Part shown: piece by piece, positions 10,012 to 53,549 of the stretch
Position numbering within the stretch: the first letter of the stretch is position 1
How the letters are laid out: each line of letters starts with the position of its first letter
From: Mobula hypostoma
Taxonomy: Eukaryota
Length of the DNA: 64,000 nt
Assembly: GCF_963921235.1 (NCBI RefSeq)
Contig: NC_086107.1
Coordinates: 109,060,001 to 109,124,000, forward strand
Reading direction: 5' to 3'
The notes under the pieces: generated by a model
The model's database searches: none
Told to the model about the DNA's origin: nothing
What the model saw: only the letters and a program-made list of their open reading frames with translations
Made by a program: the position numbers and the translations under genes

Positions 10012-10269
10012 CACGAACATGAGAAAGTCTGCAAATGCTGGAAATCCACAGCAACACCCACAAAATGCTGAAGAAGATCAGAAGGCCAGGTAGCATCTAT
10101 AAAAAGAGTAAACAGTCAACTTTTAGGGCTGAGACCCTTCATCAGGACCAGGGACAGTCCCTTCCTGGGAATAGTCCTGATCAAGGGTCTCGGCCCAAAA
10201 CGTCGACTGTTTATTCATTTCTACAGATGCTGCCTGACCTGCTGAGTTCCTCCAGCATTTTGTGTGTGT
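10012..10269. mobile_element. Fold-back Penelope pLTR insertion with two inverted hammerhead-like motifs
   Basis: Left arm minus, right arm plus. TSD CACTGAATATAT (10000-10011) / CACTGAATGTAT (10270-10281). Confidence 0.8.
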
Positions 10270-10404
10270 CACTGAATGTATATGTATTTCTTTCTGTAAT
10301 TTATAGTATATTCTATCTATTACATTGTACTGCTACAGCAAAACAACAAATTTCACAATATATGTCAGTGATATTAAACCTGATTCTGAAATTTATTTAT
10401 TTAG

Positions 10405-11058
10405 ATTTAGATTAGATTAGATTATGAGGACAAGCAGTCTTCTTTTATTGTCATTTAGTAATGCATGCATTAAGAAATGATACAATGTTTTTCCAGAATA
10501 ATATCACAGAAACACATGACAAACCGACTAAAAACTGACAAAAACCACATAATTATAACATATAGTTACAACAGTGCAAAGCAATACCGTAATTTGATAA
10601 GAACAGACCATGGGCACGGTAAAAAGTCTTAAAGTCTCTTGAAAGTCCCATCATCTCACGCAGACGGTGAACCTCCAGCGCCGCCAACTTGCCGATGCAG
10701 CATCCTGGAAGCACCCGACCACAGTCCGACTCTGAGTCCGTCCGAAAACTTTGAGCCTCCGACCAGCTCTCCGACACCGAGCACCGAGCACCATCTCTGC
10801 CGAGCGCTTCGACCCCGGCCCCGGCAACAGGCAGCAGGCAAAGCTGAGGATTTGGGGCCTTCCCCTCCGGAGATTCTCGATCGCACAGTAGCAGCGGCAG
10901 CGAAGCGGGCATTTCAGAAGTTTCTCCAGGTGTTCCTCCGTGCTTCTCACAGCTGTCTCCATCAAATCAGGATTGTGCACGGCCCCCTAGTTAACACGTA
11001 TTGATATCATTCGGAACGGCCGCGCGCGCTGCGTCCCGCCGCCATCTTCTCCTCCCTC
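10405..11058 (-). mobile_element. ~650-bp non-autonomous retroposon, copy 2
   Basis: Highly similar to 4735-5385 (the supplied ORF translations are nearly identical). Confidence 0.85.
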
Positions 11059-11293
11059 CTCAACCTTATCAAAACTCAGTCAATGTTGCTTTTCTTCTGA
11101 ATGGCAGCAACCCCAACAAAGCATCACAACCTGTAAGATCAGTCTTGAGTTTATCTGTAGAGTAGGGACCAGAGTCCACAACCCAGCTACCCCAGGGTCC
11201 AGTGTGGTGCGAAATCAGGCAAGCAACTGCCTTTCGTCCGCATCACAGCAAATTCAACAGCAGTAAAATTCTTTGCTGTTATTAAAGGAAAAG

Positions 11294-11313
11294 GCACCAT
11301 CTGCTGGTGGCCA
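11294..11313 (-). promoter_or_regulatory. Candidate CTCF site
   Basis: Minus strand TGGCCACCAGCAGATGGTGC matches the core CCASYAGRKGGCRS with one mismatch, in apparently non-repetitive DNA. Motif match only. Confidence 0.35.
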
Positions 11314-11563
11314 ATGTAAGAACTAATTGACATGGAAAAACACATTGCAAGTGAAACCACCTGGTTTCCTTGACCAGGAGATACACACTCCAGTCCCGCC
11401 AAACCCTCGAGATTGAGAGGGATCTCCCACACCAAACCCTGGTTTGTGTGGATACTGTGTAGTTTGCTACCCTGTTACAACTCAGTGCCAAGAAATAACA
11501 GACAACACACTGCATATGATTAAAGGAATTATACTTATGAATCTTAACTAAAGGGTTAGTAAA

Positions 11564-11876: not shown

Positions 11877-12689
11877 GTAAAGAAAGAAAAATCAAAAAGG
11901 GCCCATTATAATTAAACAGTCAAATGTGCACAAGTTGGAGCTCAACTCCTCCAAATGTCCTCAGTAGACCTCAGCACCTTGCTCCATCGAATCACAGTCC
12001 CCCACCAGGTCGAACCCTATGACCGGCTCTCTCCAGCGTCTTCGCTCTTCATCTCCCACTGAACAAAGGACCCCGGCTCACACTGCTGTCAGGCACACAA
12101 CACAAAAAAACACACTGCCCTTGTTGGACAGCTCACATTCCAAAGCACCCGTTATCTCTAACCATAACCCAAACATTGCTTCTACAGAAAGACCATTATG
12201 TTAACCTTTCCCAGGGAGTTACACAAGAATGTATCAGTCTCTAATCTGATGGCACGAACGTCGAGTTCTCCAACTTAAGGTAATTCCTCCCCCTCCTCTT
12301 GTCTCCTTTTCTGTTCCCCACTCCAGGTGCCATCTCGCTCCTTTACTTCTCCTCACCTGCCCATCAGCTCCCTTCAGTGCTGTTCCTCCTCGCCTTCCTC
12401 CCATGGTGCACTCGCCTCTCCTATCAGATTTCTTTATCTTCAACCCTTTTCCACCTTCCAGCTTGTCATCTCATTTCCCCCTCCCACATGCCTTCCTGCT
12501 CCCCAGACTGACTCCATCCATCACCTTCTAGCATGTACTCCTTCCCCTCTTCCCACCTTTTTACTCTGGCTTCTTCCCCCTTCCTTTCCAGTCCTGTTGA
12601 TGAGGATAGCCATGGTCACAGCTATGATTGTTCTTGGCAAATGTTTTCTAGAGCGACTGAGATCCCCGGAAGAGCGAAGATGGTGGAAA

Positions 12690-14930: not shown

Positions 14931-15056
14931 TCCTATATGATTATAAAAGAGAGACAAGAATGCTTAGTAAGATGGAGATATATGTATGGCTTTTATTGAC
15001 CTAGAGATAGATACCTTAACTTCCAACACAAGTCAAATATTGTAAATATATTCTAA

Positions 15057-15790
15057 ACATGAGAAAGTCTGCAGATTTTGGAAATCCAAAGTAACACATA
15101 GCTGGAGGAACTCAGCAGGCCGGAGAGCATCTATGAAAAAGAGTAAACAGTTGACGTTTCGGGCCAAGACTCTTCTTCAGGACTGGAAAGGAAGAGAAGT
15201 CAGAGTAAGAAGGGTGAAGCGAAGGTAACTTCACTCCAGTCACAAGAAAAATCGGGACCACTCGGTGGCCACCTATTTCAATTCTACTTCCCATTCCTAT
15301 TCTGACATGTCAGTCCATGGCCTCTGCTACTGTCATGATGAGGCCGCTCTCAGGATGGGGGAGCAACATCTTATATTCCACCTGGGTAGCCTCCGACCTG
15401 ATGGCATGAACGTTGATTTCTCGAACTTCCATAAGTCGCCCCCTGTTTCCCTCTCACCTGTCTTTCTTACCTACCTATCACCTCCCTTAGGTGCTCCTCC
15501 CCTTCCCTCATTTCCATGGTCTGCTGTCCTCCCCTATCAGATTCCCCCCTTCTCCAGCCTTTTATCTCTTTCACCAATCAACTTTCCAGCTCTTTACTTA
15601 ACCCCACCCCCTCTTCCAGTTTCACCTACCACCGTGTGCTTCTTCCTCACCTCCCCTCATCTTCTTACTCTGACTTCTCCTCTTTCTTTCCAGTCCTGAT
15701 GAAGGGTCTCAGCCCAAATCTTCAACAGTTTACTCTTTCCCATAGAAGCTGCTTGGTCTGTTGAGTTCCTCCAGCATTTTGAGTGTGTTG
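15057..15790. mobile_element. Penelope-like element: GIY-YIG C-terminal remnant between inverted pLTRs
   Basis: 15265-15430 reads ATYFNSTSHSYSDMSVHGLCYCHDEAALRMGEQHLIFHLGSLRPDGMNVDFSNF. Hammerhead-like motifs at 15148-15185 (-) and 15691-15728 (+). Confidence 0.85.
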
Positions 15791-15809
15791 GCTTGTTTGA
15801 TTAAGCATT

Positions 15810-16844: not shown

Positions 16845-17385
16845 ACGAGAAAATCTGCAGATTCTGGGAATCGAAGGCATCGCACACAAAATGCTGGGGG
16901 AACTCAGCAGGCCAGGCAGCATCTATGGAAAAGAGTGAACAGTCGACATTTCGGGTCGAGACCCTTCATCAGGACTGAGAAGGAAGGGGGAAGATGCCAG
17001 AATAAAATGGTGGGGGTGGGGAAGGAAGTTAGCCGGAAGGTGAGAGGTGAAGCCAGGTGGGTGGGAAAGGTCAAGGGCTGGAGAAGAAAGAATCTGGTAG
17101 GAGGGGAGAGTGGACAATAGGAGAAAGGGAAGGCCTCATGAGGCCACCCTCAGAGAACAGCAGCAATACATTATAGTCCATCTCGCTACCCTACAACCTG
17201 ATGGCATGAATAGCGATTTCTCCTTCTGGTGAACAAAAATTACCCCCCCCCAACCCCTCCCCTCCTCTATTCCCCTCTCTGACCTTTTACTACTTCTCAT
17301 CTGCCTATTGCTTCCCCCAGGGTCCCCTCCCTCTTCCCTCTTCCCTTCTTCCGCGGATGCTGCCCGACCTGCTGAGCTCCTCCTG
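16845..17385. mobile_element. Penelope-like inverted pLTR pair with GIY-YIG remnant
   Basis: Minus pLTR at 16845-17130, then a plus segment (HEATL..QQYI..HLATLQPDGMN.DFS) running to GATGCTGCCCGACCTGCTGAG. Confidence 0.75.
16940..16977 (-). ncRNA. Minimal type-I hammerhead ribozyme motif (Penelope pLTR)
   Basis: Minus strand CAGUC CUGAUGA A GGG UCUCGA CCC GAAA UGUC GACUG: stem I CAGUC/GACUG, core CUGANGA and GAAA, stem II GGG/CCC, GUC cleavage triplet. Activity untested. Confidence 0.7.
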
Positions 17386-23220: not shown

Positions 23221-23823
23221 TACAGCAGACAAACAGAGTTGTTTAATGACTAGTTTTACCTTTAAGCTCTCACTGTGTTTTTTATGACGTTCATTATGTG
23301 TATACAGTTTCCTTACACTTCTCATCCTTTCTTAAATGATTACAGCATGCATGTCTTTCCTTGTTTTATGATCTTTTTAAGTTTATTCTGGACCAGCGCT
23401 CACACTGAGTCGTGGATTCGAGTTCTGTGTGATCAACCATGCTGCGTGCTCTTGATTTGATTACTCGCTGTTTTACTCTCCAAATAAATCTTCTTTGTTA
23501 ATTTCTACTATCAAGTCCTGAGTTTGCTCCACACCTGGGTCAGCTTATCTGAGGAATGTTGCACCTGGTGGTATGTCCTTTCAGATTTTTCTACCTTCTG
23601 CCCGTTGGGAGGTGGGAGAATGTCTGGTGTGGAAAGTGTCCTTGATTATGCCGGCTGCTTCGTCGAGGCAACAAAGGTTCATTTAATATAAGAGAATGTA
23701 TACAGCATACAACTCTTACTCATCACAGACATCCACAAAGCAAGAAACCCCATAGAATGAAGGATAGAAACATCGAAGCCCCAAAGCCCCCTTCCCCTCG
23801 CAAAAGCATCAACAGGGTTTATT

Positions 23824-24526
23824 CACAACACGCTGGAGGAACTCAGCAGGTCGGGCAGCATCCGTGGAAACGATCAGTCAATGTTTCGGGCCGGAACCCT
23901 TTGTCAGGACTGTAGAGGGGAGGGGCAGAGGCCCTATGAAGAAGGTGGGGGGAGGGTGGGAAGGAGAAGGCTGGTAGGTTCCAGGTGAAAAACCAGTAAG
24001 GGGAAAGATAAAGGGGTGGGGGAGGGGAAGCAGGGAGGGGATAGGCAGGAAAGGTGAAGAAGAAATAGGGGGGAAACACAATGGGTAGTAGAAGGAGGTG
24101 GAACCATGAGGAAGGTGATAGGCAGCTGGGGGAGGGGGCAAAGCAAAATAGGGATAGGGGAAGGGAGGGGGAGGGAATTACCGGAAGTTGGAGAATTCTA
24201 TGTTCATACCAAGAACATGTTCTACTATGTTCTACTACCTATTGTGTTTTCCCCTATTCCTTCTTCACCTTTCCTGCCTCTTCCCTCCCCCACCCCTTTA
24301 TCTTTCCCCTTACTGGTTTTTCACCTGGAACCTACCAGCCTTCTCCTTCCCACCCTCCCCCCCACCTTCTTTATAGGGCCTCTGCCCCTTCCATCTACAG
24401 TCCTGACGAAGGGTTCCAGCCCGAAACGTTGACCAATCGTTTCCACGGATGCTGCCTGACCTGCTGAGTTCCTCCAGCCTGTTGTGAGTGTTGCTTTGAC
24501 CCCAGCATCTGCAGATTATTTTGTGT
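23824..24526. mobile_element. Fold-back Penelope pLTR insertion
   Basis: 23824-24090 is the reverse complement of ~24230-24490. Degenerate 17-bp TSD CATCAACAGGGTTTATT (23807-23823) / CATTGATAGAGTTTATT (24527-24543). Confidence 0.85.
24398..24433 (+). ncRNA. Minimal hammerhead ribozyme motif
   Basis: CAGUC CUGACGA A GGG UUCCAG CCC GAAA CGUU GAC: core intact, GUU triplet, short stem I (GUC/GAC). Confidence 0.6.
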
Positions 24527-25029
24527 CATTGATAGAGTTTATTGAGGAGAAGCTGGTTTTCATGATGTGCTGACCTGTGTTTGCAACTCCCTGCAGTGTC
24601 TTGTGATCTTGGACAGAGCAGTTCTGGATTATAACGTATGGACTAGCCAGATTTGTTGATGTGGCTTGCAAATTGGCTGTCATCCACATATCAGCAACAA
24701 TTCATTTATTGCAAACATCCTGAGAATGTGACTAGGTCAAGTTATGTTCATCACCGTCTACGTAACCACAGTGAGGTCCAGGTACAGTGGAAAAACTTGC
24801 TTGCTCACAGAATATAAATCATACATAAATCATTCTCATTTGTTATGAGATGGGTCATATGACTTCATCATTATGTGCCGTGTTGTATGACATCGGTGAA
24901 ATTTACTGTGGCTAATTAACCTAATAAACAGCACATCTTTGGATTGTGGGAGGAAACCAGATCACCCAGAGTCATGGGGAGAACGTAGAAACTCCTTACA
25001 GGTAGGTCCTTTCCAGTCCTTCCAGCAAT

Positions 25030-25212
25030 CCCCTAATTTAATCCTAATCACAATTTACAATGACTAATTAACCTACCCATTGGTATGACTGTGGGCGGTA
25101 ACCAGAGCACCTGAACGGGGAGGACGTACGCACTCCTTACAGGCAGCGGTGGGAATTGAACCCGGGTTGCCGGCACTGTAAACCGTTGTGCTAACCACTA
25201 CGCTACCGTGCC
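25030..25212 (-). mobile_element. HE1/V-SINE-like tRNA-derived SINE
   Basis: Minus strand GGCACGGTAGCGTAGTGGTTAGC...GGGTTCAATTCCC (A and B boxes) continues into a SINE body, so it is not a tRNA gene. Related copies at ~20700-20940, 34290-34550, 41820-41985, 44575-44660, 56420-56610 and 60780-60935. Confidence 0.8.
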
Positions 25213-25218
25213 AAGTCT

Positions 25219-25517
25219 TGATGAACATAACTTGACCTAGTCACATTCTCAGGATGTTTGCAATAAATGAATTGTTGCTGATAATGTGGATGACAGCCAA
25301 TTTGCAAGCCGCATCAACAAATCTGGCTGGTCCATATGTTATAATCCAGCACTGCTCTTCCCAAGATCACAAGACACTGCAGGGAGTTGGGAAACACAGG
25401 TCAGCACATCATGAAAACCAGCTTCTCCTCAACAAACTCCGTCGATGCTTTTGCGAGGGGAAGGGGGCTTTGGGGCTTCGATGTTTCTATCCTTCATTCT
25501 ATGGGGTTTCTTGCTTT
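25219..25517 (-). repeat. Inverted local duplication of 23737-23823 plus 24527-24753
   Basis: Reverse complement aligns to both flanks of the Penelope insertion and lacks the insertion. Confidence 0.85.
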
Positions 25518-26126
25518 TCCTTTCACACTGCACACCAATCTTCGCACCACTCAGCTGGTTTATTCCCATTATTGTATTTATTACTACATATGTTATCACC
25601 ATAACACTGTTTACTCAGTGAGATTCATGCAAGCAACGAGTTTCACTGCACCCTGGTGTATATGACAATAATCTAAACTGAAGCCGATAAAAAGCATATT
25701 AGCCTTTATTACAAGAGGATTTACGAGTAATGTAACGATATGCTACTACAGTGATATTTAATGAGCGCTTGCCTGGCATCTACTGCTCCACTTTGCTCTC
25801 TTTACAGGTTGCATTTGCAAATGAGTGGCCGTCATGAAGAATTGCCAGACTGCTCCTCAGCTGAGCAGGTCTGGCAGCATCTATCGAAATAGATGCTGCT
25901 CCTCAGATGAGGAGAGATTGAGTAGACTAGGCCAGCCTTGGTGCCAGCTCACATCAATCTACTCAGCCATCAATCTGGCCATTCCCTTCTACATAGCCCT
26001 CAACCCGAAACATCGGCGGGTTATTAATTTCCAGAGATGCTGCCTGACCCGCTGAGTTCCCCCAGCATCCTTTTGGGTGTTGTTTTAGACTAGGTCTTTG
26101 TTCTCTGGAGTTGAAAAGAACGAGTG

Positions 26127-30585: not shown

Positions 30586-31599
30586 TCATAATCATAATCA
30601 TATATATGTTATACAACCTTGAGATTTGTCTACTTACAGGCAGCCACAAAGCAAGGAAACCCCAGAAGAATCCACTGAAAAAGTAAGACTGGCAACACCA
30701 AATCTGCAGAGAGAGAGAGAAACAAAATGTGCGAACAATAAAAATAAGCAAATAGCATTTGGAGTGGAAGTGCAACCTTGGGCATGGAGCCCAGAGCAGG
30801 CCACAGCCTTAGCCTCAGTTCAGTGCAGAGCCAACGGCAACAGGGAGCAACCAGCAGAACCGACCCCCAGAAGTGCATTCCAGGCACCCACCACCCCACG
30901 TGTAAAAAACCTACTTCTGACATCTCCCTGAAACTTACATCCACTCACCCTAAACCAATGTCCTCTGGTACCGGTCATGGGAAAAAGGTGCTGCCTGTCC
31001 ACACTATCTATGCCTCTCGTAATCTCTATCAGTTCACCTCTCATCCTCCATCACTCCGAAGTGTAAAGCACTTCAGTAGGTTCAATAGGTACATTTTAAT
31101 GTCAGAGAAATGTATACAATATACATCCTGAAATTCTTGTTCTTCGTAAGCATCCACGAAAACAGAGGAGTGCCCAAAAGAATGAATGACAGTTAAATGT
31201 TAGATTCCCCAAAGCCCCCCTCAGCTCCCCCACCCCCATCCCGCGCGTAAGCAGCAGCAAAGAGACGATCCTTTCTAAAAGCCTATTATATGTCTTTTCC
31301 TCATGAGACATGAGAATAAACCTTTCCTCATAGGGCATATTTCTTAATTCAGGCAGCATCCTGGTAAATCTCCTCTGCACCCTTTCTAAAGCTTCCACAT
31401 CTTCCTATAATGTGACTAGACCTGAACACAATACTCAAGTGTGGTCTGAACAAAGTTTTATGCAGAGCTACAACATTAATTCTCAGCTCTTCGACATTCA
31501 AAGTATTATCAAAAGTATGTATACATTATGCAACCTTGAGACTTGCCTCCTAATAGTCAGCCACAAAACAAGAAAGCAAAAAGAGCCCATTAAAAAGAA

Positions 31600-31793
31600 A
31601 ACACGAGGAAATCTGCAGATGCTGGAAATTCAAGCCACACACAAAGTTGCTGGTGAACGCAGCAGGCCAGGCAGCATCTCTAGGAAGAGATACAGTCGAT
31701 GTGACAAAGGGTCTCGGCCTGAAACGTCGACTGTGCCTCTTCCTAGAGATGCTGCCTGGCCTGCTGCGTTCACCAGCAACTTTGATGTGTGTG
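31600..31793. mobile_element. Miniature fold-back Penelope pLTR insertion
   Basis: ~65-bp near-perfect inverted arms enclose a degenerate hammerhead core. Perfect 13-bp TSD CCATTAAAAAGAA (31587-31599, 31794-31806). Confidence 0.88.
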
Positions 31794-36849: not shown

Positions 36850-38450
36850 AGGGGCCACTTTATTGGGAACACCTGTACACCTGCTCGTTAATGTAAATAT
36901 CTAATCAGCCAATCATCAAAAGTTTCAAAGGACATTTATTATCAAAGTATGTCTAAATTATACAACCTTGAGCTTTGTTTGCTTACAGGCAGCTACAAAG
37001 CAAGGAACCTGAAATAACCCAATTAAGGAAAAATAATATGAAGACCAACACCTGGTACGCAGAGAAAGGAAAAGAATCACAAATCGTACAAACAATAGAA
37101 ACGAGCAACAACATTCCGAACCAAATTGTGTCTTCAGATCCGAATCCTGGGGCAGCCCAGAGTAGGCCCAAAGCCTCAGTGTCAGTTCATTGTATTAGCA
37201 GGCACAGAGCACAGCAGCTGGGACAGTCTTCACCGCCTCCGTGCCATGGAGAGAGGCGTGAACATTGCGGGAGAGCGAGAGAAATCAGCTCTGGCCTCTG
37301 ATCCCGATACCCTGTCTTTCCAATATATCACTTAAATTGTCCAAACAGTGTATTGTACCTCACACTAGGACCTGGGCACTGTTGTAGCAAAAGGCTCCAG
37401 GTCTAGAAGACGCCTCCCAGCAACTTCCTCATGTGGTGCCAACCCAATACATAAAAGCATGCAAACATGGTCAAGAGGTTCAGCTGTTGTTCAGACCAAA
37501 CATCAGAATGGCGATGAAATGTGATCTAAGTGACGTCGACCATGGAATAATTGTTGGTGCCAGACAGGGTGGTTTGAGTATCTCAGAAACTGCTGATCCC
37601 CTGGGATTTTCACACACAACCATCTTTATAGTTTACAGAGAGTGGTGAGAAAAACAAAAAATAAAAGTTCTGTGGATGAGAATGACTTGTTAATGAGAGA
37701 GGTCAGAGGAGAATGGCCAGACTGGTTCAAGCTGACAGGAAGGCGACAGTGACTCAAATAACCACGCTTTGCAACAGTGGTGTGCAGAAGATCATCTCTA
37801 CACACCGGACATCCCACCTCTCCCGGAAGTTCCGGGAGTCTCCCGCGTATTGATAGCGGCTTCCTGATGCCCGCAAGTTATATATAATATCCTGGAAATC
37901 GATTTTTTTGAGAGCGAGCAAGAGAGAGAGAGAGAGAGAGCGCGCGCCATGGCGGAGTGTTCCAAAAATAGAAAATATAAAACGTACGTCACCCCAGACT
38001 ACACTAAAGTGTACCCCTGCCTAATAGGGGTCAAAAATAATGATGGTGTTGCTCGCTGCACTGTTTGCAACAGTGAATTTTCTATCGCCCATGGTGGGTT
38101 AAGACTGTAAAAGACATGTTGAGGTGAGTTTAACAGGTGTCATTCGTTCATTAGCATAGCTAACATTATTTAAACTAGCTGGCTAGCTGCTCAGGAGCTA
38201 CTCTATTGCAGACATCCCACCTCTCCCGGAAGTTCCGGGAGTCCCCCGCAAATTGATGGTGCTACCTCCCTGAAATGAGTTTTTGCAGGGTGGGATGTCT
38301 GAAACATACAGCACGTCAAACCTTGAAGTGAATAGGCTACAGCAGCAGAAGACCATGAACATACACTCAGTGGCCATTTTATTAGTATCAGACCACAAGA
38401 CCTTACAGAGTATTAGGTACAGAAGGTAACTAATAAAGTGGCCACTGAGT
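36850..38450 (+). mobile_element. Tc1 non-autonomous element fragmented by nested insertions
   Basis: TIR-like ends at ~36853 and ~38447; HTH remnant at 37508-37648. Interrupted at ~36918-37430 (retroposon) and 37806-38301 (hAT). Confidence 0.75.
37806..38301 (+). mobile_element. hAT-like non-autonomous DNA transposon, copy 1
   Basis: TIR C(G)GACATCCCACC / GGTGGGATGTCTG. Internal ATG at 37949 encodes ..ARCTVCNSEFSIAHGG (zinc-finger-like transposase N-terminus). Near-identical to 45424-45936. Confidence 0.85.
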
Positions 38451-38451
38451 G

Positions 38452-39290
38452 TGGTGGTGGTGGGGTGGAGATACAACTTCACCAAAGGAGGTGGAAGGCG
38501 CTCCTTCCTTCTGCGAGCCTGCAGGTCACCCTTGGGCAAGGTGTATCACCTGCTTAGACCCACCCCTCCACCAATCAGGATCACATGAAGCCATAGGAGC
38601 TGATGGTGGATGGTCGTATGACCATCTGGGGTAGATCACAAGTCCTGGTTATGCGACCACTGACGCCAGGCAGACAATCTCTGAAGAGTATTGATAATGG
38701 CTGGGGTCACCCGTCTTGTAAAGACACCGTCCAGAAGGCAATGGCAAACTACTTCTATAGAAAAATTTGACAAGAACAATCACCAACTCTCCCAATCATC
38801 ATGAAGATCGAGAGGTGCACAAATTCGACTGGGCACCAGTGAAAGTCATGGCGTAAGCAAACACAGGGCATGCAGGAGAATTCTTCGAAGTGTGGTTTTC
38901 CGTAAACAATTCTATAAACAAACACATAGACCTTGATCCGATTTATGAGCTGATGTTGGCAAAATTCCAGACCACAGCGCACAAAGTTCGCCACACAGCC
39001 AGTCAGCGACGGGATTTCCTCCCCACATCGCAACTCAGTTTCTGTAATGACGACCAGTCAGCTGGTTGATAAGTACAGAAAGGCCAAGCATTCGGAGGAC
39101 AAATGACAATTTTATCAGCACACTGATCAGCACTCCTCGTATGGTGACGATATGTTTGCCAAGTAAGTTGCCAAGATCGGAGAACAACTCATCCCAGCCG
39201 TCGAACACCCAAGCCACACGTTTTCCAAGTTATTGCCAAAGGACAGTCATGGTCAAAAGACCATGATCACCCACATATCGCGACAAAGTA
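38452..39290 (+). mobile_element. RTE/BovB-related SINE split by a Penelope insertion
   Basis: AAGGCAATGGCAAACTACTTCT tail resembles BovB/RTE-type 3' ends. Related pieces at ~7130-7290, 12600-12650 and 17700-17870. Confidence 0.55.
38783..39232 (+). mobile_element. Second Penelope family (Poseidon-type) 3' fragment
   Basis: Degenerate A.EFFEVWFS.NNSINKHIDLDPIY (GIY-YIG C-terminus). Decayed hammerhead-like CTGATCA..CAC/GTG..GATATGTT at ~39118-39160. Confidence 0.6.
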
Positions 39291-39699
39291 CATATCGATG
39301 GTGACTGATGCACGCTCTCCAGTGTTACCGTGAAAGAGATTGTCAGAATGCAAACATCAATCAAAAATACGGGCAGAAAGAGCTCGCGATATTTTGCCAA
39401 CGGATGATCTACCTCATTATGACCTTGCATCTCATCGTCTGCCTCCACTTTTGTGGTAACTATAACACTTTATTCCACATGCTTGCTTTTCCCTTCTACT
39501 GCCTCAACGCACTGCATCATGAATTGATTTGTATGAACAGTATGCAAAAGCAGCTTTTCACTGTATCTTGGGACATGTGACAATAACAAACCAAAACCAA
39601 ATCCATTATTTGCATCTTTAAAACATGCCAAGTATCACCACAGGAGTTTTACCAAACATGAAAACAGAGAAACTCAGCACAGAGGATTTTATAAACCAG

Positions 39700-40912
39700 G
39701 AAACTCTGCAGCTGGTGGAAATCAGGTGGCATCTGTGATAATGAATAGACAGTCGACATTTCGGGCCAAGAGCCATCTTCAGGACTGAGAAGGAATGGGG
39801 AAGATGCCAGAATCAATAGGTGGGGGCAAGGGGAAGGAGGCTAGCTGGAAGGTGATGGGTGAAGCCAGATGGGTGGGAAGGGTCAAGGGCTGGAGAAGAA
39901 GGAATCTGATAGGAGAGGAGAGGGGACCATAGGAGAAAGGTAGCCTCCAACCTGATAGCATGCATATTGATTTCTCCTTCCAGTAAACAAAATTACCGCC
40001 CCCTCCTCTATTCCCGACTCTGACCTTTTACCTCTTCTTACCTGTCAAGGCGGGAGGACAGAGAGCAGCGCGCCGCATGCGTGCAGCCTCCTGGTGAAAA
40101 TGATATCGTATCTGTTAAATAGGGGCCGTGGACAATTCTGATTTGATGGAGACGGATGTGAAAGCACAGAGGAACATCTGGAGAAATTTCTGAAACGCTG
40201 CTGCTGTTCGCTGCGCAATCAAGAATCTTCCGGAGGGAAGGCCTCAAAATCCCCGGCTTTGCCTGCTGCTGGCGACCGAGATGGATGTCGAATCGTTCGG
40301 ATAGAGATGGTGCTCGGTACTCGGTACTCGGTGTCGGAGAGCTGATCGGAGGCTTGAAGTTTTCGGACGAATCAGAGTCGGACTGTGGTCGGGCATGGCA
40401 GGGAGAGTTTTCTTCCTTCTCCCGTCTGCGTGAGATGTGGGACATTTAACAGACTTTGAACTTTATACTGTGCTCATAGACTGTTCTTCATCAAGTTATG
40501 GTATTGTTGCACTGTTGTAACTATATGTTATAATTATGTGGTTTTGTTAGTTTTTTCAGTCTTCGTCTGTCCTGCGTTTTGTGATATCACACCGGAGGAA
40601 GTATTGTATCATTTCTTAATGCATGCATTACTAAATGACAATAAAAGAGGACTGCGTGTCTTCATAATCTAATCATCTCTTCCTGGGTCCTCTCCTCCTT
40701 CCCTTTCTCCTGAGGTCCACTCTCCTCCCCTATCAGATTCCTTCTCCACCTGGATTCACCTATCACCTTCTACTTTGTCCTCCATCCCCTCCCCCATACC
40801 TTTTTATTCTGGCATCCTCCCCCTTTCTTCTCAGTCCTGAAGAAGGGTCTCAGCCCAAAATGTCAACTATCTATTCATTTCCATAGACGCTGCCTGACCT
40901 GCTGAGTTCCTC
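39700..40912. mobile_element. Inverted Penelope pLTR pair with a nested 650-bp retroposon (40030-40672)
   Basis: Hammerhead-like motifs at 39750-39787 (-) and 40832-40869 (+). The nested element is the plus-strand relative of 4735-5385. Confidence 0.75.
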
Positions 40913-43900
40913 AATTATTCAATAGTTAAATGGTTCCATTTAATATCAGAAAACGTCTGCAGTATACAACCTGAAATTCTTACTCTTCACAGACAACCAC
41001 GGAACAGAACAAAACCCTGCAGAATAAATGACAGAAAACATTAGAACCCTAAAGCCTCCCCTCCCCTCTCATGTACAAGCAGCAGCAAAGCATCAATTCT
41101 CCCCGCTCGCCCTCCTCCAATTGTTCCAGCGGAAAGCATCAGCCCCCCGCCCCACCGTCCACCATGCAAGCAACAGTGAAAGCCCCCAAAAAGTCCGTGA
41201 TCTAGAGTCCATCAAAAGTCACAGTCCATAACCCAGCACTTCAACATGCCACAGGCTCTCCTCTAATGAGAGAGAATATCACTCCTTCCACAGTGAGGGG
41301 GGGCCAACGGTTCACTGTTCCAGTGCTATAGTCAAGTTTCTCCGACTCGAGGATCGGCAGCGAGTTCTCTCCCGCCCTCGATCCTCCGGCAGCTGCACCC
41401 GCAGCCTCGACGTTCCGATCTCCCGCGACGCTCCAGCCGGTGACGAGGAGTCTGGTCGTCCGCAGGGCCGCGCCCCGAAGAAGCCTGTCTCCCAGGCCGC
41501 CCCTGAGAATACCGAAAATGCTAGGCCGCTCAGCGAGCTCCAAGACTGGGGGCCCACTGCCGTGAAAAATTGTCTTACAGAGGGTTTCTTTTGTAAATGT
41601 CAGAACCTTTAGAGAGAGAGAAGGGGAGGCATCAGGGTTTAGGGAAGGATCCGTACGGCCCAGGGAGTCAAGAGGATGGCTACTAGTGATGGGATGGTTA
41701 TACTGTCAGACCATTCGGCTCAGAGGCTGTGCACCCATCTGCACTAATCTCACCTTATAACCCCCCTCCTCCACCACCAATATTCCAAATTCTATCAGTC
41801 GCCCAATCTAAAGGGAACTTATAGCGGCAGATCAACCTACCGTTCAGGCATAGGAGCACCAGACGGAACCTACACTGCCACAGGGAGAACGTGGAAACTC
41901 CACACAGACAGCGCCAGAGGTCGGGATCGAACCGGGGTCGCTGACGCTGTGCAGCGATGGCTCTGCCAGCGGTACCACTGTGGCCCAGCTCCAAGGGAAG
42001 ACAGCGGGAGGGGGCAGCGTGGAAGCTGCAAGGCATCGGACTGCAAGACCTGACAGAGTACGGCAAAAAGCCACCAAGGGGATCATCAGGGTCTCCCGCC
42101 CCACTATCAGTGACATTTACTGCGAATGTTTATACGAAGCATTGTTGAGGATCTCTACCAACCATCCCATAATCTCTCTGACCCATTACCATCAGGAAGG
42201 AGGTACAGGAGCATCTAGGACTGCCAGACTGGGTAACAGCTTCTTCCCTCAGGCTGTGAGGTAACGAATACCCAGCCACCACCGAGGTCTCACCTCGAGG
42301 ACAGCGAGCTATTTACTGTTTGGTGCTCACCCATTCTGCACACTTTGTGTGCATTTTGAATGATATTTTATTAACTTACTTGTGGTAATATTTTGTTTTA
42401 GGTAACACACACAGAATGCTGGCGGAACTGAGCGAGACAGACAGCGCGGGTCCTGATGCAGGGCCTCGGCCCGAAACGTCGACTGGTTATTCATTGCCAT
42501 AGATGCTGCCTGACCTGCTGAGTTCCCGCTGCATTTTGTGTGTTCTGTTTTTAAGTGCTGCATGTGGGTGCACCGTGATCAGGAGGAAAAATGTTTCATA
42601 TGTGTACAGTCAGATTCAAAGATTCAAAGTACATTTATTATCAGAGAATGTATAAATTATACAACCTTGAGATTTGTTTGCTTACAAACAGCCACAAAGC
42701 AAGAAACCTGAAAGAACCCGAATAAAGAAGAAAGAAAAATGATACCCGATGCACAAGAGAAAGTAAAAGAATGCAGATCAACAACATTCTGAACCAAATT
42801 GATTCATCAGATCCGAACCCCGGGATGCCCGGAGTAGGCCCAAAGCCTTGGTATCAGTTCATCACATTAGCGGGCACGGAGCACAGCAGCTGGGGCAGTC
42901 TTCGTAGCCTCAGTGCCATGGAGAGAGGAGTGACCATCACGGAGAGCGAGTGAAATTGGCTCTCGCCTCGGATCTCAACACCTTGCCTTTTCAATCTACC
43001 TGTGCCTGTGTTTAAATTGATCCAACCACGGAACAGCGAAAGGCTCCCGCACCCTAGAGAGAGGAGTGAACATCACGGACAGCGAGCAAAATCAGCTCTC
43101 ATCTCCGATCTGGGCCGGCATATAAATCGTGTAAACAGCGGATCCTACATTGCCCTAGGACCCGGCTACTGTGAAGGGTTCGGGGCCTAGACCACACCAC
43201 CCAGCAACATGCTCCGGGCCCAGATTTCGCCACCCAGCCCAAAGCCGCTCTCAAGCTCTTCAAATCAGCTTGGCATCCAGAGTGATCCAACTTCACACTG
43301 GGGCCAGTTGAAAAGGCATCGAATCTCCTCTGCCCTAACTTCTCCTCGGCACCCAGTCCAGTTGTACGGGTCTCGAATCCCCTCTGACCCGGCCCCGACT
43401 TCTCCTCTCTGAATGGCTCACTCGATCTGCATTGATTCTGCCACACGCCATCTCGGCTCAGCAATAATTTAACTTTAATCTAAAGCCGATAATTTAACTA
43501 GAAGACAATAAACTTGAATGTTGACCTTGAGAAGTCCCCCCCTGAGACACTGGCACAACAGGAACTTCAGGTCTGGGGCTTAAGGCAAGTGAGAAAAAAA
43601 AACAGGAGCAAGCAGAGGATAAGAGAGAAGTTCTGCCGTTTCAAAATTGAGATTATTCAGTGAAGCGAGCCCAATGGAAACAGGAAATGCAAACAAGGTG
43701 GATAATTTTAGAGTGTGAAGTGCAGCAACTTCTGTAACCTGGGTCAAGTGAGAGAGAGTTCGGTCCATCAGAATACATGTCGCAGCTCCTCCATCTCCAG
43801 CCAGCTCTCGATCTATTGGCAGATGACCAACTTTGACCGGCCTTATTTCCAGCCATTACGCGACAGCCCATAGAGGAGAAGTTGACACCCTGACACAGTG

Positions 43901-45423
43901 GTGCAAGATAACAACCTCTCCCGCACGGTCCAAAAAACAAGAGAGCTGATGGTGGATTACAGGAGGAACGGAGACAGTCTCGGCCCGATCAACGTCAATG
44001 GGTCTGCAGTTGAGAGGGCGAGTAGTTTCAAGTTCCTCGGTGTACACGTCACCAAAGATCTCACCTGGACTGTAAAACACTGGCTGTGAGGCAAAAATTA
44101 TTCGACCTCTCCCCGGCCGCTGAAACACGCAAAGCCGAGGATTTCGGGGCCTTCAGCTCCGGAGATTCCGGTTACCACACAGTAGCAGCGGCAGCGAAGC
44201 GGGCATTTCAGAAGTTTTCCGGATGTTCCTCCGTACTCTCACGTCTGTCTCCATCAAATCAGAATTGTGCACGGTCCCCTACTGGACAGATAACAGACAT
44301 CATCACCGAAGTGGCCGCGCACACTGCCGTCGCACTGCCATCTTCTCCCCCCTCCTTCCAACTTGATGCCAGAAATCCAGACCAAAGCACACAAAACACT
44401 GGAGGAACACAACAGGTCAGGCAGCATCTATGGAGAGGAATAAATAGTCGGCGTTTCAGTCCGGGACTCTTCATCAGCACTGGGCCTCAGCCCAAAACGC
44501 AACTGTTTATTTCCTTCCATAGAGGCAGCCGGACTTCCTAAGTTCCTCCAGAATTTTGAGTGTCTTGCTGCCCGTAAGGAGTTTGTATGTTCACCCCGTG
44601 ACCACATGGGTTTCCTCCGGGTGCTCCGGTTTCCTCCCACCATCCAAAGGGCGTATGGGCTCGTTGTCGTCGTGCGACGCCAGTGCCAGATAGATGGCAA
44701 CACTTGCGGGCTGCCCCCACCCCCAGCACATCCTCAGACTGTGCTGTCGCTGACGCAAAACGGCGCATTTCACAACGTTTCCATGGACACGTGGCAAATA
44801 AAGCTAATCTTTAACATGAGAAGTTAATGATTTTATTAGATCAAAGAAATGTTGTCAAGAGCAACATTCAAAATGCCGTGTTAGGGATAGTGGTGGGAAC
44901 GGATATAGCAGCAGTGATGTTCAAGAGGCTGTTAGATAGACAAGTGAATATGCTGGGACTGGAGGCATGTCGATCATGTGCAGAAAGAAGAGATTTTGTT
45001 TAACCTGGCATCAAGTGGGCAGAGTTAAAACAGCGTTGTGGCTGCCTGTTTGAGCTCATCTGCGAAAAGCAGCTTAATTTCTCTCTTTAAAATCTATTTT
45101 TTTTTCCTCCTCAAGGTGGCTGGGGGTTCTATCGAAGCCCTAATCTGCAAGTGGCACTCAAACTGCGTCTTTTTACAGCGGATGAGTCTCCTGCTCTCCG
45201 GCCGTCTCGGAAAATGGCACTCCGGGGTGCAGCCCTGTGGATGACTGATTCCAGGCTGGTGTCGTCGATGGAGGCGCCGCGGGAGATGAAGCGTCAGGAT
45301 TTCACTGCGAAAGATGTACGGAAAAGCGACGCGGCAGGCTGTATCATCGTAACAGCGATTGTCAGTCTCCCCTTTCGCTGGGAAATGGGTGTAATCTCTC
45401 TGTCCCTTGTTAATGAGAGAGAG

Positions 45424-49028: not shown

Positions 49029-49339
49029 GGCACGTGGCCAAGTGGTTAAGGCATTAGACTAGTGACCTGAAGGTTGTGAGTTCGAGCCCCAGCCGAGGCA
49101 ACGTGTTGTGTCCTTGAGCAAGGCACTTAACCACACATTGCTCTGCGACGACACTGGTGCCAAGCTGTATGGGTCCTAATGCCCTTCCCTTGGACAACAT
49201 CGGTGTCGTGGAGAGGGGAGACTTGCAGCATGGGCAACTGCTGGTCTTCCATACAATCTTTCCCAGGCCTGCGCCCTGGAGAGTGAAGACTTTCCAGGCA
49301 CAGATCCAGGGTCTCGCAAGACTAATGGATGCCTTTTTT
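49029..49339 (+). mobile_element. tRNA-derived CORE-like SINE, long-tail subtype
   Basis: A and B boxes; TSD TTATTTACAGG at 49020-49030 and 49340-49350. Confidence 0.88.
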
Positions 49340-50057
49340 TTATTTACAGGATGGAAACAAAGTGGCCATTTAATGACAGTGTCTAACCATCCTTGAGAAG
49401 GTGGGGTTGAGCTTCCTTCTTCAACACCTGCCATTCCTCTGATACGGCAGTTCCCTCAGTGTTAGGAGTTCAGCGTTCTGCACGAACAGCATCATATTCG
49501 CAAGTTTTGGGTTTAGAAATGAAGATCACCAAATCCACCGGCAAGTAAGGCAACAACACGGAGAACTGGAAGTGGAGAGGGTCAGCCACTTTAAATTGCT
49601 GGGTGTTACTATTTCAGAGGATCGGTCCTGGGCCCAGCACGTAATTGCAATTCTGAAGAAAGCACGGCAGCATCTCTACTTCCTTATGAATCCGCGGAGA
49701 TTCGGCATGACATCCAAAACTTCGACAAACTTCTGTCACTGTGTGGTGGAGAGTTTATTGACTGGCCACATCGCAGTCTGATAAGGAAACACCAATGCCT
49801 TTGAACAGAAAATCCTACAAGAAGTAGTGGATTTGGTCCGGTAAAGCCCTCCCAACCATTGAACACATCTACGTGAAACGCTGTCATAGGAAAGCAGCAT
49901 CCATCATCAGAGACCCTCGTCACCCTGACATGCTCTTTTCTCGTTTCTGCTGTCAGGTAGAAGGTACAGGAGCCTCAGGACTCACACCACCAGGTTCAAG
50001 AACAATTACTACCCCTCAACCACCAGACTCTTGAATAAAAGGGGATAACTACACTTA

Positions 50058-50557
50058 AACACAAAATAATCTGCAGATGCTCTTGTCAAAGGAACACTCA
50101 CAATGCGCTGGAGGAACTCAGCAGGTCAGTCAGCATCAGTTGAAAAGATTAGTCAATGTTTCGGGCCGAAACCCTTCGTCAGGACTGAAGGAAGAACTTT
50201 GGGGAGGGTTTGAAGAATGCTGGTAGTTGAAAAAAACAGTAATTTGAAAGACAAAGGGGTGGGGGAGGGGAAGCAGGGAGGTGATTGGCAGGAGAACAAT
50301 GCGCAGTAGTAGAAGGAGGCGGAACTATGAGGGAGGTGATGTGAAATAGGGATAGAGGAAGGGAGGGGGAGGGAATTACCGGAAGTTGGAGAATTCTATG
50401 TCCATACAAAGGGGCTGGAGACTACCTAGATGGTATTCTTCAAACCCTCCCCAAAGTTCTTCCTTCAGTCCTGACGAAGGGTTTCAGCCCGAAACGTCGA
50501 CTAATCTTTTCAACTGATGCTGACTGACCTGCTGAGTTCCTCCAGCGCATTGTGAGT
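50058..50557. mobile_element. Fold-back Penelope pLTR insertion
   Basis: 50095-50217 is the reverse complement of ~50436-50558. TSD GATAACTACACTTA (50044-50057) / GATAAATACACTTA (50558-50571). Confidence 0.88.
50466..50502 (+). ncRNA. Minimal type-I hammerhead ribozyme motif, best-preserved plus-strand copy
   Basis: CAGUC CUGACGA A GGG UUUCAG CCC GAAA CGUC GACU: all core residues present, palindromic ACGU stem III, predicted cut after C50498. Confidence 0.72.
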
Positions 50558-53397
50558 GATAAATACACTTACTTGCTCCATCACTGAGATGTTCCCACAA
50601 CCAATAATCTCACTTTAAGTACTCTTTATCTCATCATCTTATGTTCTCGTTATTTATTGCTACTTATTTATATTGGCATTGCACAGTTTGTTGACTTCTG
50701 AACTCCGGTTGATCTTTCATTGATCCTGTTATAGTTACTATTCTATAGATTTGCTGAGTGTACCCGCAGGAAAATGAATCTCAGGGGTGTATATGGTGAC
50801 ATATATGTACTTTGATAATAAAATTTACTTTGAACTTGACGTTGAGAACACAGAATAACAACAGGCTCTTCAGCCCACGAGGTTGTGCCAAACTTAGTAA
50901 ACTAATAATTAATTGCCAAATTAAACTAATTCCTTCTGGTGACATGAGGTCCATCCATGTCCCTCCATTCTCCGCACATCCAGCATTCTGCCCGCACAGC
51001 CCCAGGGTGGGGGGTGGACACTGTATGACACGCTCCAAGTAACAAAGGTCCAAAGTTCAAAGGAGTATGTACGATCCTTTATTAATGAGCCGGCAAAAGA
51101 CGAACAATCTTGTAACGACAAAAAGCTAATGGAACTAAAACCAGCGATATAACAAAATTAGCGGTCTAAGCAATGATGTTACTGATCTTGGCGTATTTAA
51201 GTGTTCAACAAAAAAATATCACTCCCTGGCTCTAAAATGAACCAAACCAGAGAAAGCTTGGACACATAACTAGACTTGCTCAATTCTACCGCGCTCCAGC
51301 CACATGACATAATAAACGTTCAATACAGACAGACAGAAAATATGGCCCCTGCTTCCCAGCTCCTAATTATTGCACTATAATGATTACAATTATACACTAC
51401 TAAAAATAGGAGACAAGAAATCTTCAAGGATAAACATCTTAATATTCATACAAATGTTCTCTTTTTTCTTCCAAAGAGTTCATGCAGCAATCATCTAGAC
51501 TGGAGGTTACCAGCACTTAGCCCAGTGCAGTGTGATCTTTACCTCCACTCTCTATCGGTCGGTAACTCAAGTCAAAGTCATGAAGCTTGCAGAGCTGCAG
51601 CTCCGCAAACTTCTGCTCTTGGTTATAGGCCTGTCCAGACAGCTGGACTTCGTCTTGATGCGCACCTGCCGCACGTACCGTCTTCTGTCTGGAAAAACTC
51701 AAATGACTCTTCGCATGATCCCATGAGGCGCTGTGTCGTCATCTACCCGCACAATGTTTCCCGGGAGGAAGTTGTGTTTTATACCTGACCACTTCTGATG
51801 TTCTTGTAACTCTGGTAAATACTCCTTGACACACCGTTTCCAAAATAACTTTGACATGTAGAGGACCTGCTTCCATCTACGATGAGAATCCTTTTGGAAC
51901 TCTCCTGGTGGTAAAGATGGTGAGGTCCTTCAGAAGCAACAGATGATTGGGTGTTAATGATCAGATGATGCTTTAGTTATTGGATGACCATTGATAATAG
52001 CCTCACAAAGAACAGTGTGGAAGTCCTCTTTGTCAGGGTGCTGTACCTTCATGGTGGAATTGGGGACCTTTCGCACAGACTTTATCAATCTCTCCCTTGT
52101 TCCTCCATGATGTAAACCAGGGGGTGGGTGGGGGGTTAAAATCCACTTAATTTCCAATTGCAAGCTTGAGAATTCATCTGGAAACCTCTTTCTTTGGCAA
52201 AGGCCAGCGATCTCCATTTCGGCCCTTCTGAGCTGCTCCATTGAGACAACCTCAGCTGATCTGACGTTTGGACTTCTCAATCTCTCTCTCTCCAAGGAAT
52301 CTCCTTCTTGTTCTTCATCCAAGTCAGACTGAGCAAGAGCGATCTTCACGTGCTTCCTCGTTCGACTAAGAAACAAGAGCGGGTTCTTAAATCTAAGATT
52401 CAAGGCCACCATCTTCGTCAAAAGATGGAAGATGAAAAATGATCTATTATATGTGTTCCTGCGTCCACCTCCTCGTCAATCTGCACAGCATTCATTGTAA
52501 CACTCCTCCTGACTTCCGGCTCATCTAGCAGAACAGTTGGGATTAACAGGCCATTCCCTTTCAGGCTGAAGAAGGTACTAAGGCCCAGATACCCAAGTTT
52601 CATCCTTCAGGAACGCTTTCACCTTCAACTTTCTAGAGGCCACGTCTGCTAGGTTGCTTGAAGTGTTTCCATACCTCCGTTGAGATGCTTGTGAGACTTT
52701 AAGAATTTCTGAAACCCTGCCTGCAATGAACCCTGGAAGTTTCATTCCAAATATACTTCAGTACAGATGTACCATCAATCTAAAAAGCTGAGTCCTGAAG
52801 CTGCAGGTACAACTTTATCCTCCACAATGTGTCCATACGTCTTGCCATTGTAGCAGCAGTGAGCTCCATTGAGAGGGATGGCTACTGACCTCAATAGAGC
52901 TACCTGAGATTTACACATGAGAACACAAGTTTTGCAACAATAGGTAGGTCACTGCTCCACAGCCATCTCCACTCGCATCTATAAAGTAGTGTAACTGTGC
53001 AGTAGTAACTTCTCCAAAATCCAGGGGTTTCAAACATCTAACAACCTTAAAGTCTTCCAGCCGGCAGACTTCTTCCAGCCAGCTTGTTCACTCATGAGCA
53101 ACTGATGTTGGTATAGTGTCATCCCAGCTAAGCCCTTTCTTACATAGATCTTATAGAATCTTCTTAGCAGATAACAAGATTCCTAAGCGGAGCATAGATG
53201 GAACTAATTGTGGAGAGGATCTGCCTTCTGGTAAATGGTCTTTCCTGGATGGTAATCTTAAACCTGAAAGTATCAGACTGAATGCACCATTTCACACCCA
53301 ATCCGTTCTCCACCAAAGAAACATATTGATTCAAATCCAAATCCTTCATGTCTTTCACTCTTTATTCTTATGGTATAACAGTTAGCACACCATGTCT

Positions 53398-53549
53398 ACA
53401 TTTCGGGCCGAGACCCTTCGTCAGGGCGAAGGGTCTCGGCCCAAAATGTTGACTGTACCTCTTCCCAGAGATGCTGCCTGGCCTGCTGTGTTCACCAGCA
53501 ACTTTTATGTGTGTTGCTCGAAATTCCAGCATCTGCAGATTTCCTCGTG
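53398..53549. mobile_element. Short fold-back Penelope pLTR insertion within BEL
   Basis: Two abutting inverted hammerhead-like halves. TSD AGCACACCATGTCT (53384-53397) / AGCACACTATATCT (53550-53563). Confidence 0.75.

What the first reader, a model, noticed from the sequence alone, without database searches (positions are those of the whole stretch)
10012..53549. Dense family of hammerhead-ribozyme-bearing Penelope pLTRs inserted as fold-back units
Seen: the motif CAGTC-CTGANGA-AGGG-N6-CCC-GAAACGTC-GACTG, or decayed versions, occurs more than 15 times (e.g. ~6240, 7310, 10115, 10175, 15148, 15691, 16940, 23875, 24398, 31705, 39750, 40832, 42450, 44450, 50150, 50466, 53400, 53430, 61505). At least five insertions are minus-arm/plus-arm pairs with the 3' ends pointing outward, each bounded by one 12-17 bp TSD (10012, 23824, 31600, 50058, 53398), so each palindrome arrived in a single event. 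Established: Penelope-like elements encode GIY-YIG endonucleases, form inverted pLTR arrangements and carry minimal hammerheads with a palindromic stem III that need dimerisation. Inference: this lineage has a very high-copy, mostly non-coding, retrozyme-like derivative that places a potential self-cleaving motif on both strands and creates long dsRNA hairpins.
Basis: partly seen in the sequence, partly recalled or inferred. Interest (0 to 1): 0.72.

Follow-up and report, generated by a model that had tools for sequence, protein, structure and literature searches.

The report
Penelope retrotransposon tails inserted as hairpins
These hairpin-shaped insertions are real, but they are the broken-off tail ends of a known kind of jumping gene (Penelope-like) laid down in its known back-to-back pattern, and their small ribozyme motifs are mostly damaged or predicted to be locked inside the hairpin.

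Summary
All 19 listed motifs plus one more are present (20; 2 hits in 20 shuffles). The five named units start one base after a 12-17 bp duplication; six more back-to-back units have none. The motif is the described minimal hammerhead of Penelope-like elements (PLEs). The retrozyme reading fails: there are no tandem arrays, and seven copies run upstream into the C-terminus of an RT/GIY-YIG protein (relatives in rays and skates, Neptune-type linker). These are 5'-truncated PLE ends in the published 'inverted copy plus tail on one end' layout: 8 of 11 units have the tail on exactly one arm, none on both. Only 7 of 20 motifs keep the catalytic core, and where both arms carry it, folding locks it in the hairpin. 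Two small-sample patterns that my searches did not find in print: in 6 of 11 units the further-reaching arm stops 27-33 nt before the cut site, and in 6 of 8 tailed units the tail-less arm reaches further than the tailed one, which favours two separately primed cDNAs over fold-back copying. The scan reported this family before, in this genome (41 notes) and in other genomes.

The parts
10012..10269 (.). Unit U10: minus arm 10012-10148 (with tail), 24-nt filler, plus arm 10173-10269 (no tail); duplication 10000-10011/10270-10281
23824..24526 (.). Unit U24: minus arm to about 24213 (no tail, reaches coding end), 16-nt filler, plus arm 24230-24526 (with tail); 17-bp duplication; arms 95% alike
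25361..25517 (-). Empty copy of the U24 target site, in an inverted duplication of host DNA
   Evidence: (96% over 157 nt)
31600..31793 (.). Unit U31: minus arm with tail, plus arm without; exact 13-bp duplication; arms 97% alike; both arms cut inside the hammerhead
50058..50557 (.). Unit U50: minus arm 50058-50442 (tail, reaches coding end), plus arm 50435-50557, 8-nt overlap at the centre; 14-bp duplication; arms 98% alike
53398..53549 (.). Unit U53: very short minus arm ending within -1 to +3 of the cut site, plus arm with tail; 14-bp duplication
15056..15793 (.). Unit U15: minus arm with tail; plus arm from 15229 begins in the endonuclease coding end; no duplication found
15229..15432 (+). 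68-codon remnant of the C-terminus of a PLE GIY-YIG endonuclease
   Evidence: 57% identity over 67 aa to P0006
16842..17392 (.). Unit U17: minus arm with tail and intact core (16941-16977); plus arm starts in coding end and has lost its hammerhead; no duplication found
39691..40912 (.). Unit U39: minus arm with internal deletion and tail; plus arm starts in coding end, interrupted by another repeat at about 40046-40675; no duplication found
6164..6322 (.). Unit U6, abutting an older plus copy; no tail above the null, no duplication
42402..42545 (.). Unit U42; no tail; duplication score at the edge of the null
44382..44569 (.). Unit U44; no tail above the null, no duplication
5700..6163 (+). 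Solo copy: coding remnant 5701-5862, pyrimidine-rich 3' region, decayed hammerhead at 6125
12236..12602 (+). Solo copy from coding end to the start of the hammerhead core
7307..7387 (+). Decayed solo copy
25999..26086 (+). Solo fragment starting in stem II; a further minus fragment lies at 25861-25893
61406..61537 (-). Solo copy with tail
50466..50503 (+). Best-kept minimal hammerhead: full core, stem I 4 of 5, stem II 4 of 4, palindromic helix III; predicted cut after 50498

Best explanation
The units are dead, 5'-truncated 3' ends of endonuclease-bearing Penelope-like retrotransposons (Neptune type) in a cartilaginous fish, probably a ray. Each arm is the same stretch: end of the GIY-YIG coding region, a pyrimidine-rich 3' region, the minimal hammerhead, about 60 nt more, and an optional tail of about 36-40 nt. 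Most likely mechanism: the element's protein nicks both target strands 12-17 bp apart; each nick primes a cDNA on element RNA, one at the downstream start site (tailed arm) and one at the upstream site (tail-less arm); both stop early and their ends are joined by 1-8 nt of microhomology or 1-24 nt of filler, giving a head-to-head pair inside one duplication. Shown here: identity, duplications, arm geometry, junction types. Taken from the literature: nicking and extension of both strands and two internal start sites (PMC11167929, a Poseidon element). Inferred: that two cDNAs make the two arms (about 60%). The hammerhead is cargo in these copies: it does not set their ends and is predicted to be paired with its own antisense copy.
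For: Coding remnants in seven copies; 97 protein hits at E<=0.001, the best from rays and skates; hits P0061 and P0077 pass Pfam's GIY-YIG cut-off, P0027 carries RVT_1 plus a sub-threshold GIY-YIG, P0005 and P0006 show the CX2-5CxxC linker and CxxC between GIY and YIG (motif definitions in PMC8557442). Duplications and empty sites. Tail on exactly one arm in 8 of 11 units, on both in 0 of 11, as published. In U24, U31 and U50 each arm's best match among the 26 arms is its partner, at 95-98%. In 6 of 8 tailed units the tail-less arm reaches further 5' than the tailed arm, one is a tie, one is the reverse. Stems form with probability 0.00 in both directions in the 5 units with two motifs. Distant relatives of the protein carry a hammerhead-like motif downstream of the match on the same strand in 6 of 14 loci.
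Against: No full-length copy in the window and no genome held, so RT and linker come from relatives, not from these copies. The remnants alone hit no Pfam family and a word-based search found nothing. Six of 11 units lack a duplication; in 7 of 11 units (U6, U10, U15, U17, U39, U42, U44) partner arms are only 74-84% alike and are not each other's best match, so a single event is not shown for the six without a duplication. 'No unit with two tails' is not significant by itself (P=0.13). U50 fits fold-back copying equally well. High arm identity could also come from gene conversion, and matched arm lengths from later deletion of palindrome centres. No covariation in the 20 motifs.
Confidence: 0.82

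Rival explanations
1. Same elements, but the inverted arm is made by self-priming: the first cDNA, or an antisense RNA, folds back and copies itself (antisense version proposed in PMC3846280).
For: U50 has an 8-nt overlap and a tail-less arm contained in the tailed arm; fillers in U10, U17 and U24 contain small palindromes. The antisense version predicts that the tail-less arm reaches further 5', as in 6 of 8 tailed units.
Against: Fold-back of the tailed cDNA cannot give 6 of 8 tailed units; the antisense version does not give U50. Both orders occur, which two separate cDNAs allow.
Confidence: 0.25
2. A short non-autonomous RNA of about 135 nt, starting at the first strand of stem I, is a second template class beside the long element RNA (SINE-like, linear, not a retrozyme).
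For: In 6 of 11 units the further arm stops at -27 to -33 from the cut (P about 2e-4 and 2e-5 under two smooth length models); no unit mixes an arm that passes -35 with one that does not (P=0.0007 at that threshold, 0.02 allowing any threshold). The stop lies on an initiator-like YCAGTCC (consensus recalled, not tested).
Against: 11 units, ends entered by hand and by eye, threshold chosen after looking; rank correlation of arm lengths P=0.06. The same spot is also a 3' splice-site-like motif and the edge of a pyrimidine tract, so an RT pause or deletion of palindrome centres could explain it. No RNA end data.
Confidence: 0.25
3. One reading: a non-coding element that spreads by hammerhead cleavage and circles.
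For: Very high density; core has no fixed differences between four subfamilies (0 of 10 columns); animal retrozymes are proposed to derive from PLEs (bioRxiv 10.64898/2026.07.22.740005).
Against: None of the 13 tandem-repeat rows covers a motif; no fixed unit length; coding remnants in seven copies; 0 of 22 arm 5' ends at +1, nearest -5; pairs are inverted, not head to tail.
Confidence: 0.05
4. The pairs arise from two independent insertions at one spot or from later rearrangement.
For: Six units without a duplication and with 74-84% alike arms.
Against: Five shared duplications, an empty site for U24, fixed outward orientation in 11 of 11 units, partner arms as best matches in the young units.
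Confidence: 0.05

Closest known systems
Insertion units of canonical EN+ Penelope-like elements: inverted 5'-truncated copy, one TSD, 30-40 bp tail on one end (PMC3846280; bioRxiv 10.1101/2021.04.23.441226 = PMC8557442)
   Same: Head-to-head arms, single duplication, tail on one arm, heavy 5' truncation.
   Different: No ORF body between the arms, so units are only 144 to about 740 nt (1,220 with a nested repeat); density about 8% of the window; duplications 12-17 bp against 8-10 bp in the rotifer cases read.
Minimal type I hammerheads of metazoan PLEs (PMC4209133)
   Same: Core boxes, one extra base before stem II, G-C first pair of stem II, palindromic helix III without loop; the paper also notes pairs on opposite strands 100-700 bp apart in Schistosoma.
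   Different: Stem II is 4 bp, shorter than the 6-8 bp described for Schistosoma and Drosophila; host not among those named in the parts read; activity untested.
Poseidon element of Anolis carolinensis, PAc (PMC11167929)
   Same: Two 3' end positions downstream of the hammerhead; hammerhead cut not used to define copies; both strands extended in vitro.
   Different: Relatives here have the Neptune-type linker; no start codon or open frame at the hammerhead could be established.
Non-LTR retrozymes (bioRxiv 10.64898/2026.07.22.740005)
   Same: Type I hammerhead, PLE ancestry, mostly non-coding sequence.
   Different: No tandem units; inverted pairs with duplications; arms of variable length that enter the coding region.

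Membership tests
EN+ Penelope-like elements | C-terminal GIY-YIG endonuclease with CCHH motif | tested here: met
   Window holds only the last 68 codons or less; they align to the C-termini of GIY-YIG proteins with CxxC between GIY and YIG.
EN+ Penelope-like elements | Telomerase-like RT in the same ORF | tested here: inconclusive
   Not in the window. Relatives P0027 (RVT_1) and P0005 (RT motifs by eye, no Pfam hit) join RT to the matching end; no tree was built.
EN+ Penelope-like elements | Inverted truncated copy, one TSD, tail on one end | tested here: met
   11 units; 5 with duplication; tail on one arm in 8, on both in 0.
EN+ Penelope-like elements | Hammerhead in the terminal repeat downstream of the ORF | tested here: met
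EN+ Penelope-like elements | Full-length element with direct pLTRs | not testable with these tools
   No genome held.
Neptune clade | CX2-5CxxC linker between RT and endonuclease | tested here: inconclusive
   Present in close relatives P0005, P0006, P0013; beyond the reach of the window's copies; Nematis also has a linker.
Minimal type I hammerhead | Core boxes with stems I and II | tested here: met
   Majority sequence fits; 7 of 20 copies keep all 11 core bases; 81% of stem cells paired against 14-48% for slid pairings.
Minimal type I hammerhead | Palindromic helix III | tested here: met
   Unchanged 4-nt palindrome in 7 of 20 copies; others mostly CpG-type changes.
Minimal type I hammerhead | Compensatory changes in the stems | tested here: not met
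   Covariation score 0.112, reached by 421 of 500 shuffles; the copies are close kin, so this test has little power.
Minimal type I hammerhead | Self-cleavage as dimer or with protein | not testable with these tools
   Energy model does not favour the swapped dimer in 7 of 7 copies tried; it ignores the tertiary core.
Non-LTR retrozyme | Tandem units, each with a hammerhead | tested here: not met
Non-LTR retrozyme | No coding sequence, defined monomer bounded by the cut site | tested here: not met
Non-LTR retrozyme | Circular RNA | not testable with these tools
   Only contigs, none on record as RNA.

The most novel reading that the evidence does not exclude
Both arms of a unit are copied from one RNA molecule by a dimeric PLE protein that primes at both target nicks, at two start sites about 40 nt apart, and about half of the units come from a short RNA that begins at the first strand of hammerhead stem I. 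That would explain the single tail, the matched subfamily and length class of the arms and the hard stop near -32, and would make this genome's very many fold-backs a direct record for settling how Penelope-like elements integrate.
Probability: 0.2. Interest if true: 0.6.

Novelty: new member of a known kind. Interest (0 to 1): 0.25.

Why it matters
As a class, nothing new: the motif, the inverted layout and the tail are all in print. The value is as a data set. How PLEs make inverted ends is open (self-priming on antisense RNA against priming from both nicks), and short, duplicated, very numerous units let the models be told apart by counting arm ends. The remnants also turn up inside predicted host proteins of rays and skates, so the family matters for gene annotation there.

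Tried and rejected
Own-genome search: no genome held, so no genome-wide counts or master copy. Rfam: no hammerhead family match; two microRNA families matched hairpins below their cut-offs and were rejected. Pfam on two remnants: 0 families. Word-based protein search, longer proteins only: none at E<=0.001. ESM Atlas: best hits unnamed; one cluster with 21% GIY-YIG at score 0.88, a lead only. PDB sequence search with P0005: 0 hits. Sequencing runs: no RNA holder listed; the four runs laid were contigs and give nothing on expression or RNA ends. Exact-match duplication search missed U53 and U24 and found only 8-nt cores of U10 and U50; the mismatch search replaced it. Empty-site search in the window: spanning copies for U24 and U50 only, 2 of 5; the U50 one has 6 extra bases at the site. 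Covariation: none; consensus fold of 8 tailed arms gave one 8-bp helix without compensatory change. Dimer energies uninformative. Spliced-RNA template: no arm that stops near -30 carries the coding end directly upstream (by eye). Fold-back priming on stem I: no partner arm starts at +1 to +6. Partial tails suspected by eye in U6 and U44 were not above the null. The fragments at 25861-25930 were dropped as a unit because no plus arm aligned; solo copies were left out of the unit statistics. Lunse et al. (PMC5785218) is not held.
Full report
OBSERVATION. Their majority sequence is a type I hammerhead with 5-bp stem I, both core boxes, one extra base before a 4-bp stem II and a 4-nt palindrome in place of helix III. 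Rfam has no hammerhead match here. Seven of 20 copies keep all 11 core bases. Stem cells pair in 81% of cases against 14-48% for slid pairings, but there is no covariation (421 of 500 shuffles reach the score).

UNITS. Alignment of arms gives 11 minus/plus pairs, all with 3' ends pointing outward, and several solo copies, together about 5.3 kb or 8% of the window. The five named units begin one base after a duplication: U10 11 of 12, U24 13 of 17, U31 13 of 13, U50 13 of 14, U53 12 of 14. Four score above all 410 null pairs; U24 is reached by 3 of 410, and its site has an empty inverted copy at 25361-25517, 96% alike over 157 nt. For U50, contigs in runs X4 and X5 join 50055 to 50585 with 15 letters between, the length left when the unit and one duplication copy are removed; these are other copies of the host repeat, not the same locus, and a variant with extra bases also exists. 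The other six units have no duplication above the null. Partner arms are 93-98% alike in U24, U31, U50 and U53 and 74-84% alike in the rest. A tail of about 36 nt is on exactly one arm in 8 of 11 units, on neither in 3, on both in none (P=0.13 for the last point). Centres show overlaps of 1-8 nt (4 units) or fillers of 1-24 nt (7 units).

WHAT THE ARMS ARE. Seven copies continue upstream into a short coding remnant (15229, 5701, 17140, 50435, 39909, 24210, 12236). A profile of three remnants found 97 proteins at E<=0.001. Of the ten looked up, all are from rays or skates, so the host is probably a ray (inference). Of 24 different hits scanned with Pfam, 8 gave a GIY-YIG match, 2 of them above the cut-off, and one also RVT_1. 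The longest remnant is 57% identical over 67 residues to the C-terminus of P0006. P0005, P0006 and P0013 have a CX2-5CxxC linker and CxxC between GIY and YIG, marks of Neptune or Nematis elements (PMC8557442, passages). Six of 14 distant metagenome loci of this protein have a hammerhead-like motif downstream of the match on the same strand. The arms are therefore truncated 3' ends of coding elements. None of the 13 tandem-repeat rows covers a motif, so the retrozyme definition (bioRxiv 10.64898/2026.07.22.740005; part 1 of 5, passages and Discussion read) is not met in this window.

IS THE HAMMERHEAD DOING ANYTHING? Among nine longer arms in four subfamilies, fixed differences fall in 0 of 10 core columns, 6 of 22 stem columns (4 of them gap columns that my mapping assigned there), 24 of 27 upstream columns (inflated by one out-of-register copy), 5 of 10 spacer columns and 8 of 34 downstream columns. 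That fits selection on the motif in the parent elements, though the downstream stretch is conserved too. In the inserted pairs it is probably silent: with outward 3' ends the antisense copy is transcribed first in either direction (inference), and in the five units with two motifs stems I and II form with probability 0.00 in both directions, with 81-97% of the motif paired to the other arm. The exception is U17, whose partner lost its motif (0.69). No arm begins at the cut site (0 of 22, nearest -5). One arm, in U53, ends within -1 to +3 of it, a single case. Expression was not shown.

MECHANISM. The layout is published: inverted truncated copy, one duplication, tail on one end (PMC3846280, passages; bioRxiv 10.1101/2021.04.23.441226, passages). 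The motif and its opposite-strand pairs are in PMC4209133 (parts 1-2 of 4). For the anole element the protein cuts and extends both strands, starts at two internal sites that bound the tail, is predicted to be a dimer, and does not need hammerhead cleavage (PMC11167929, parts 1-3 of 4). The window adds a test. If the tail-less arm were a fold-back copy of the tailed cDNA it would lie inside it. It reaches further in 6 of 8 tailed units (U15, U17, U24, U31, U39, U53), ties in U10 and lies inside only in U50. Self-priming on antisense RNA, proposed in PMC3846280, fits the six but not U50. Two cDNAs, one from each nick, joined end to end, fit all eight; I put this at about 60%.

AN UNEXPLAINED PATTERN. 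The further-reaching arm stops at -27 to -33 in six units and at -290 to -495, inside the coding end, in five. The cluster is unlikely under two smooth length models (P about 2e-4 and 2e-5), and no unit mixes the two classes (P=0.0007 at the chosen threshold, 0.02 over any threshold; rank correlation P=0.06). The ends were entered by hand and by eye, and n is 11. The stop lies at the first strand of stem I, on a motif that resembles both an initiator and a 3' splice site (both consensus forms recalled). In Drosophila virilis an intron ends at that point (PMC4209133) and the start site lies 46 nt before that intron (PMC2377424, passages). A short RNA starting there is my leading guess; an RT pause or later loss of palindrome centres are rivals. 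Searches listed no paper on this pattern or on twin priming in PLEs, and none on this family in rays; the library lacks most subscription journals, Lunse et al. was not held (known only through passages of PMC6765202), and I opened no supplements. Figure S2 of PMC11167929 and the supplements of PMC4209133 may bear on both points.

EARLIER NOTES. The scan has 41 notes on this family in this genome and at least two on fold-backs in other genomes, with the same verdict; a sequence look-up and one word look-up gave nothing. Their genome-wide counts were not checked here.

VERDICT. Interest 0.25; the arm-end statistics are the part worth a genome-wide follow-up.

Noticed in passing
window 27843-30608 (-) and 573-1676 (+): A long LINE copy with endonuclease and RT domains split by single stops (Pfam Exo_endo_phos and RVT_1) and a second copy 98% alike over 1073 nt in the opposite orientation; CR1-like by recall.
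   Followed up: partly
window 23737-24753 and 25219-25517: Inverted duplication of host DNA (91-94% alike) about 0.5 kb apart; U24 sits in one arm only, so it came after the duplication.
   Followed up: yes
P0001, P0003, P0004, P0019, P0037, P0039, P0052: Predicted host proteins with the PLE coding end built in; five are named as ray or skate proteins (ATP synthase c, VKORC1L1, neuromedin-U receptor 1, RECQL5, NYAP1). In P0003 the PLE part stops exactly at the end of the PLE frame, as if a splice donor there is used. Gene models only.
   Followed up: partly
window 5862, 12280, 17229, 39982 (+), 24181, 50379 (-): A GT donor-like motif at the end of the coding remnant in 6 of 7 copies and a pyrimidine tract plus CAG at the start of stem I: a possible intron of about 200-270 nt in the terminal repeat. 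Untested.
   Followed up: partly
window 53394-53425 (-) and 6125-6163 (+): Two arms end within a few bases of the predicted cut site (-1 to +3 and about +3 to +5); could record use of a cleaved RNA or be chance.
   Followed up: partly
window 40046-40675; similar at about 4900-5500, 10390-11000, 44030-44330: Another repeat family of about 600 nt, nested in the plus arm of U39; similar translated stretches recur.
   Followed up: no
window 38359-38456: Short hairpin element with inverted ends of about 26 nt (matched a microRNA model below cut-off); U10 is inserted at the end of a similar sequence near 9985-10011. MITE-like by recall.
   Followed up: no
window 31850-32472; 58815-59101; 3462-3789: Tandem arrays: 67-bp unit, 9.3 copies, 96% alike, just after U31; a TC run of 144 units; 44-bp unit, 7.5 copies.
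   Followed up: no
window 49033-49095 (+), 25141-25212 (-): Weak tRNA-like matches below cut-off, probably SINE heads.
   Followed up: no
L004 2086, L008 1481, L009 3207, L010 2306, L011 3050, L012 2631: Hammerhead-like motifs with a longer palindromic helix III downstream of distant PLE protein matches in metagenome contigs.
   Followed up: partly
all units: The tailed arm is the minus arm in 6 of 8 tailed units; not significant, but could reflect the direction of host transcription.
   Followed up: no
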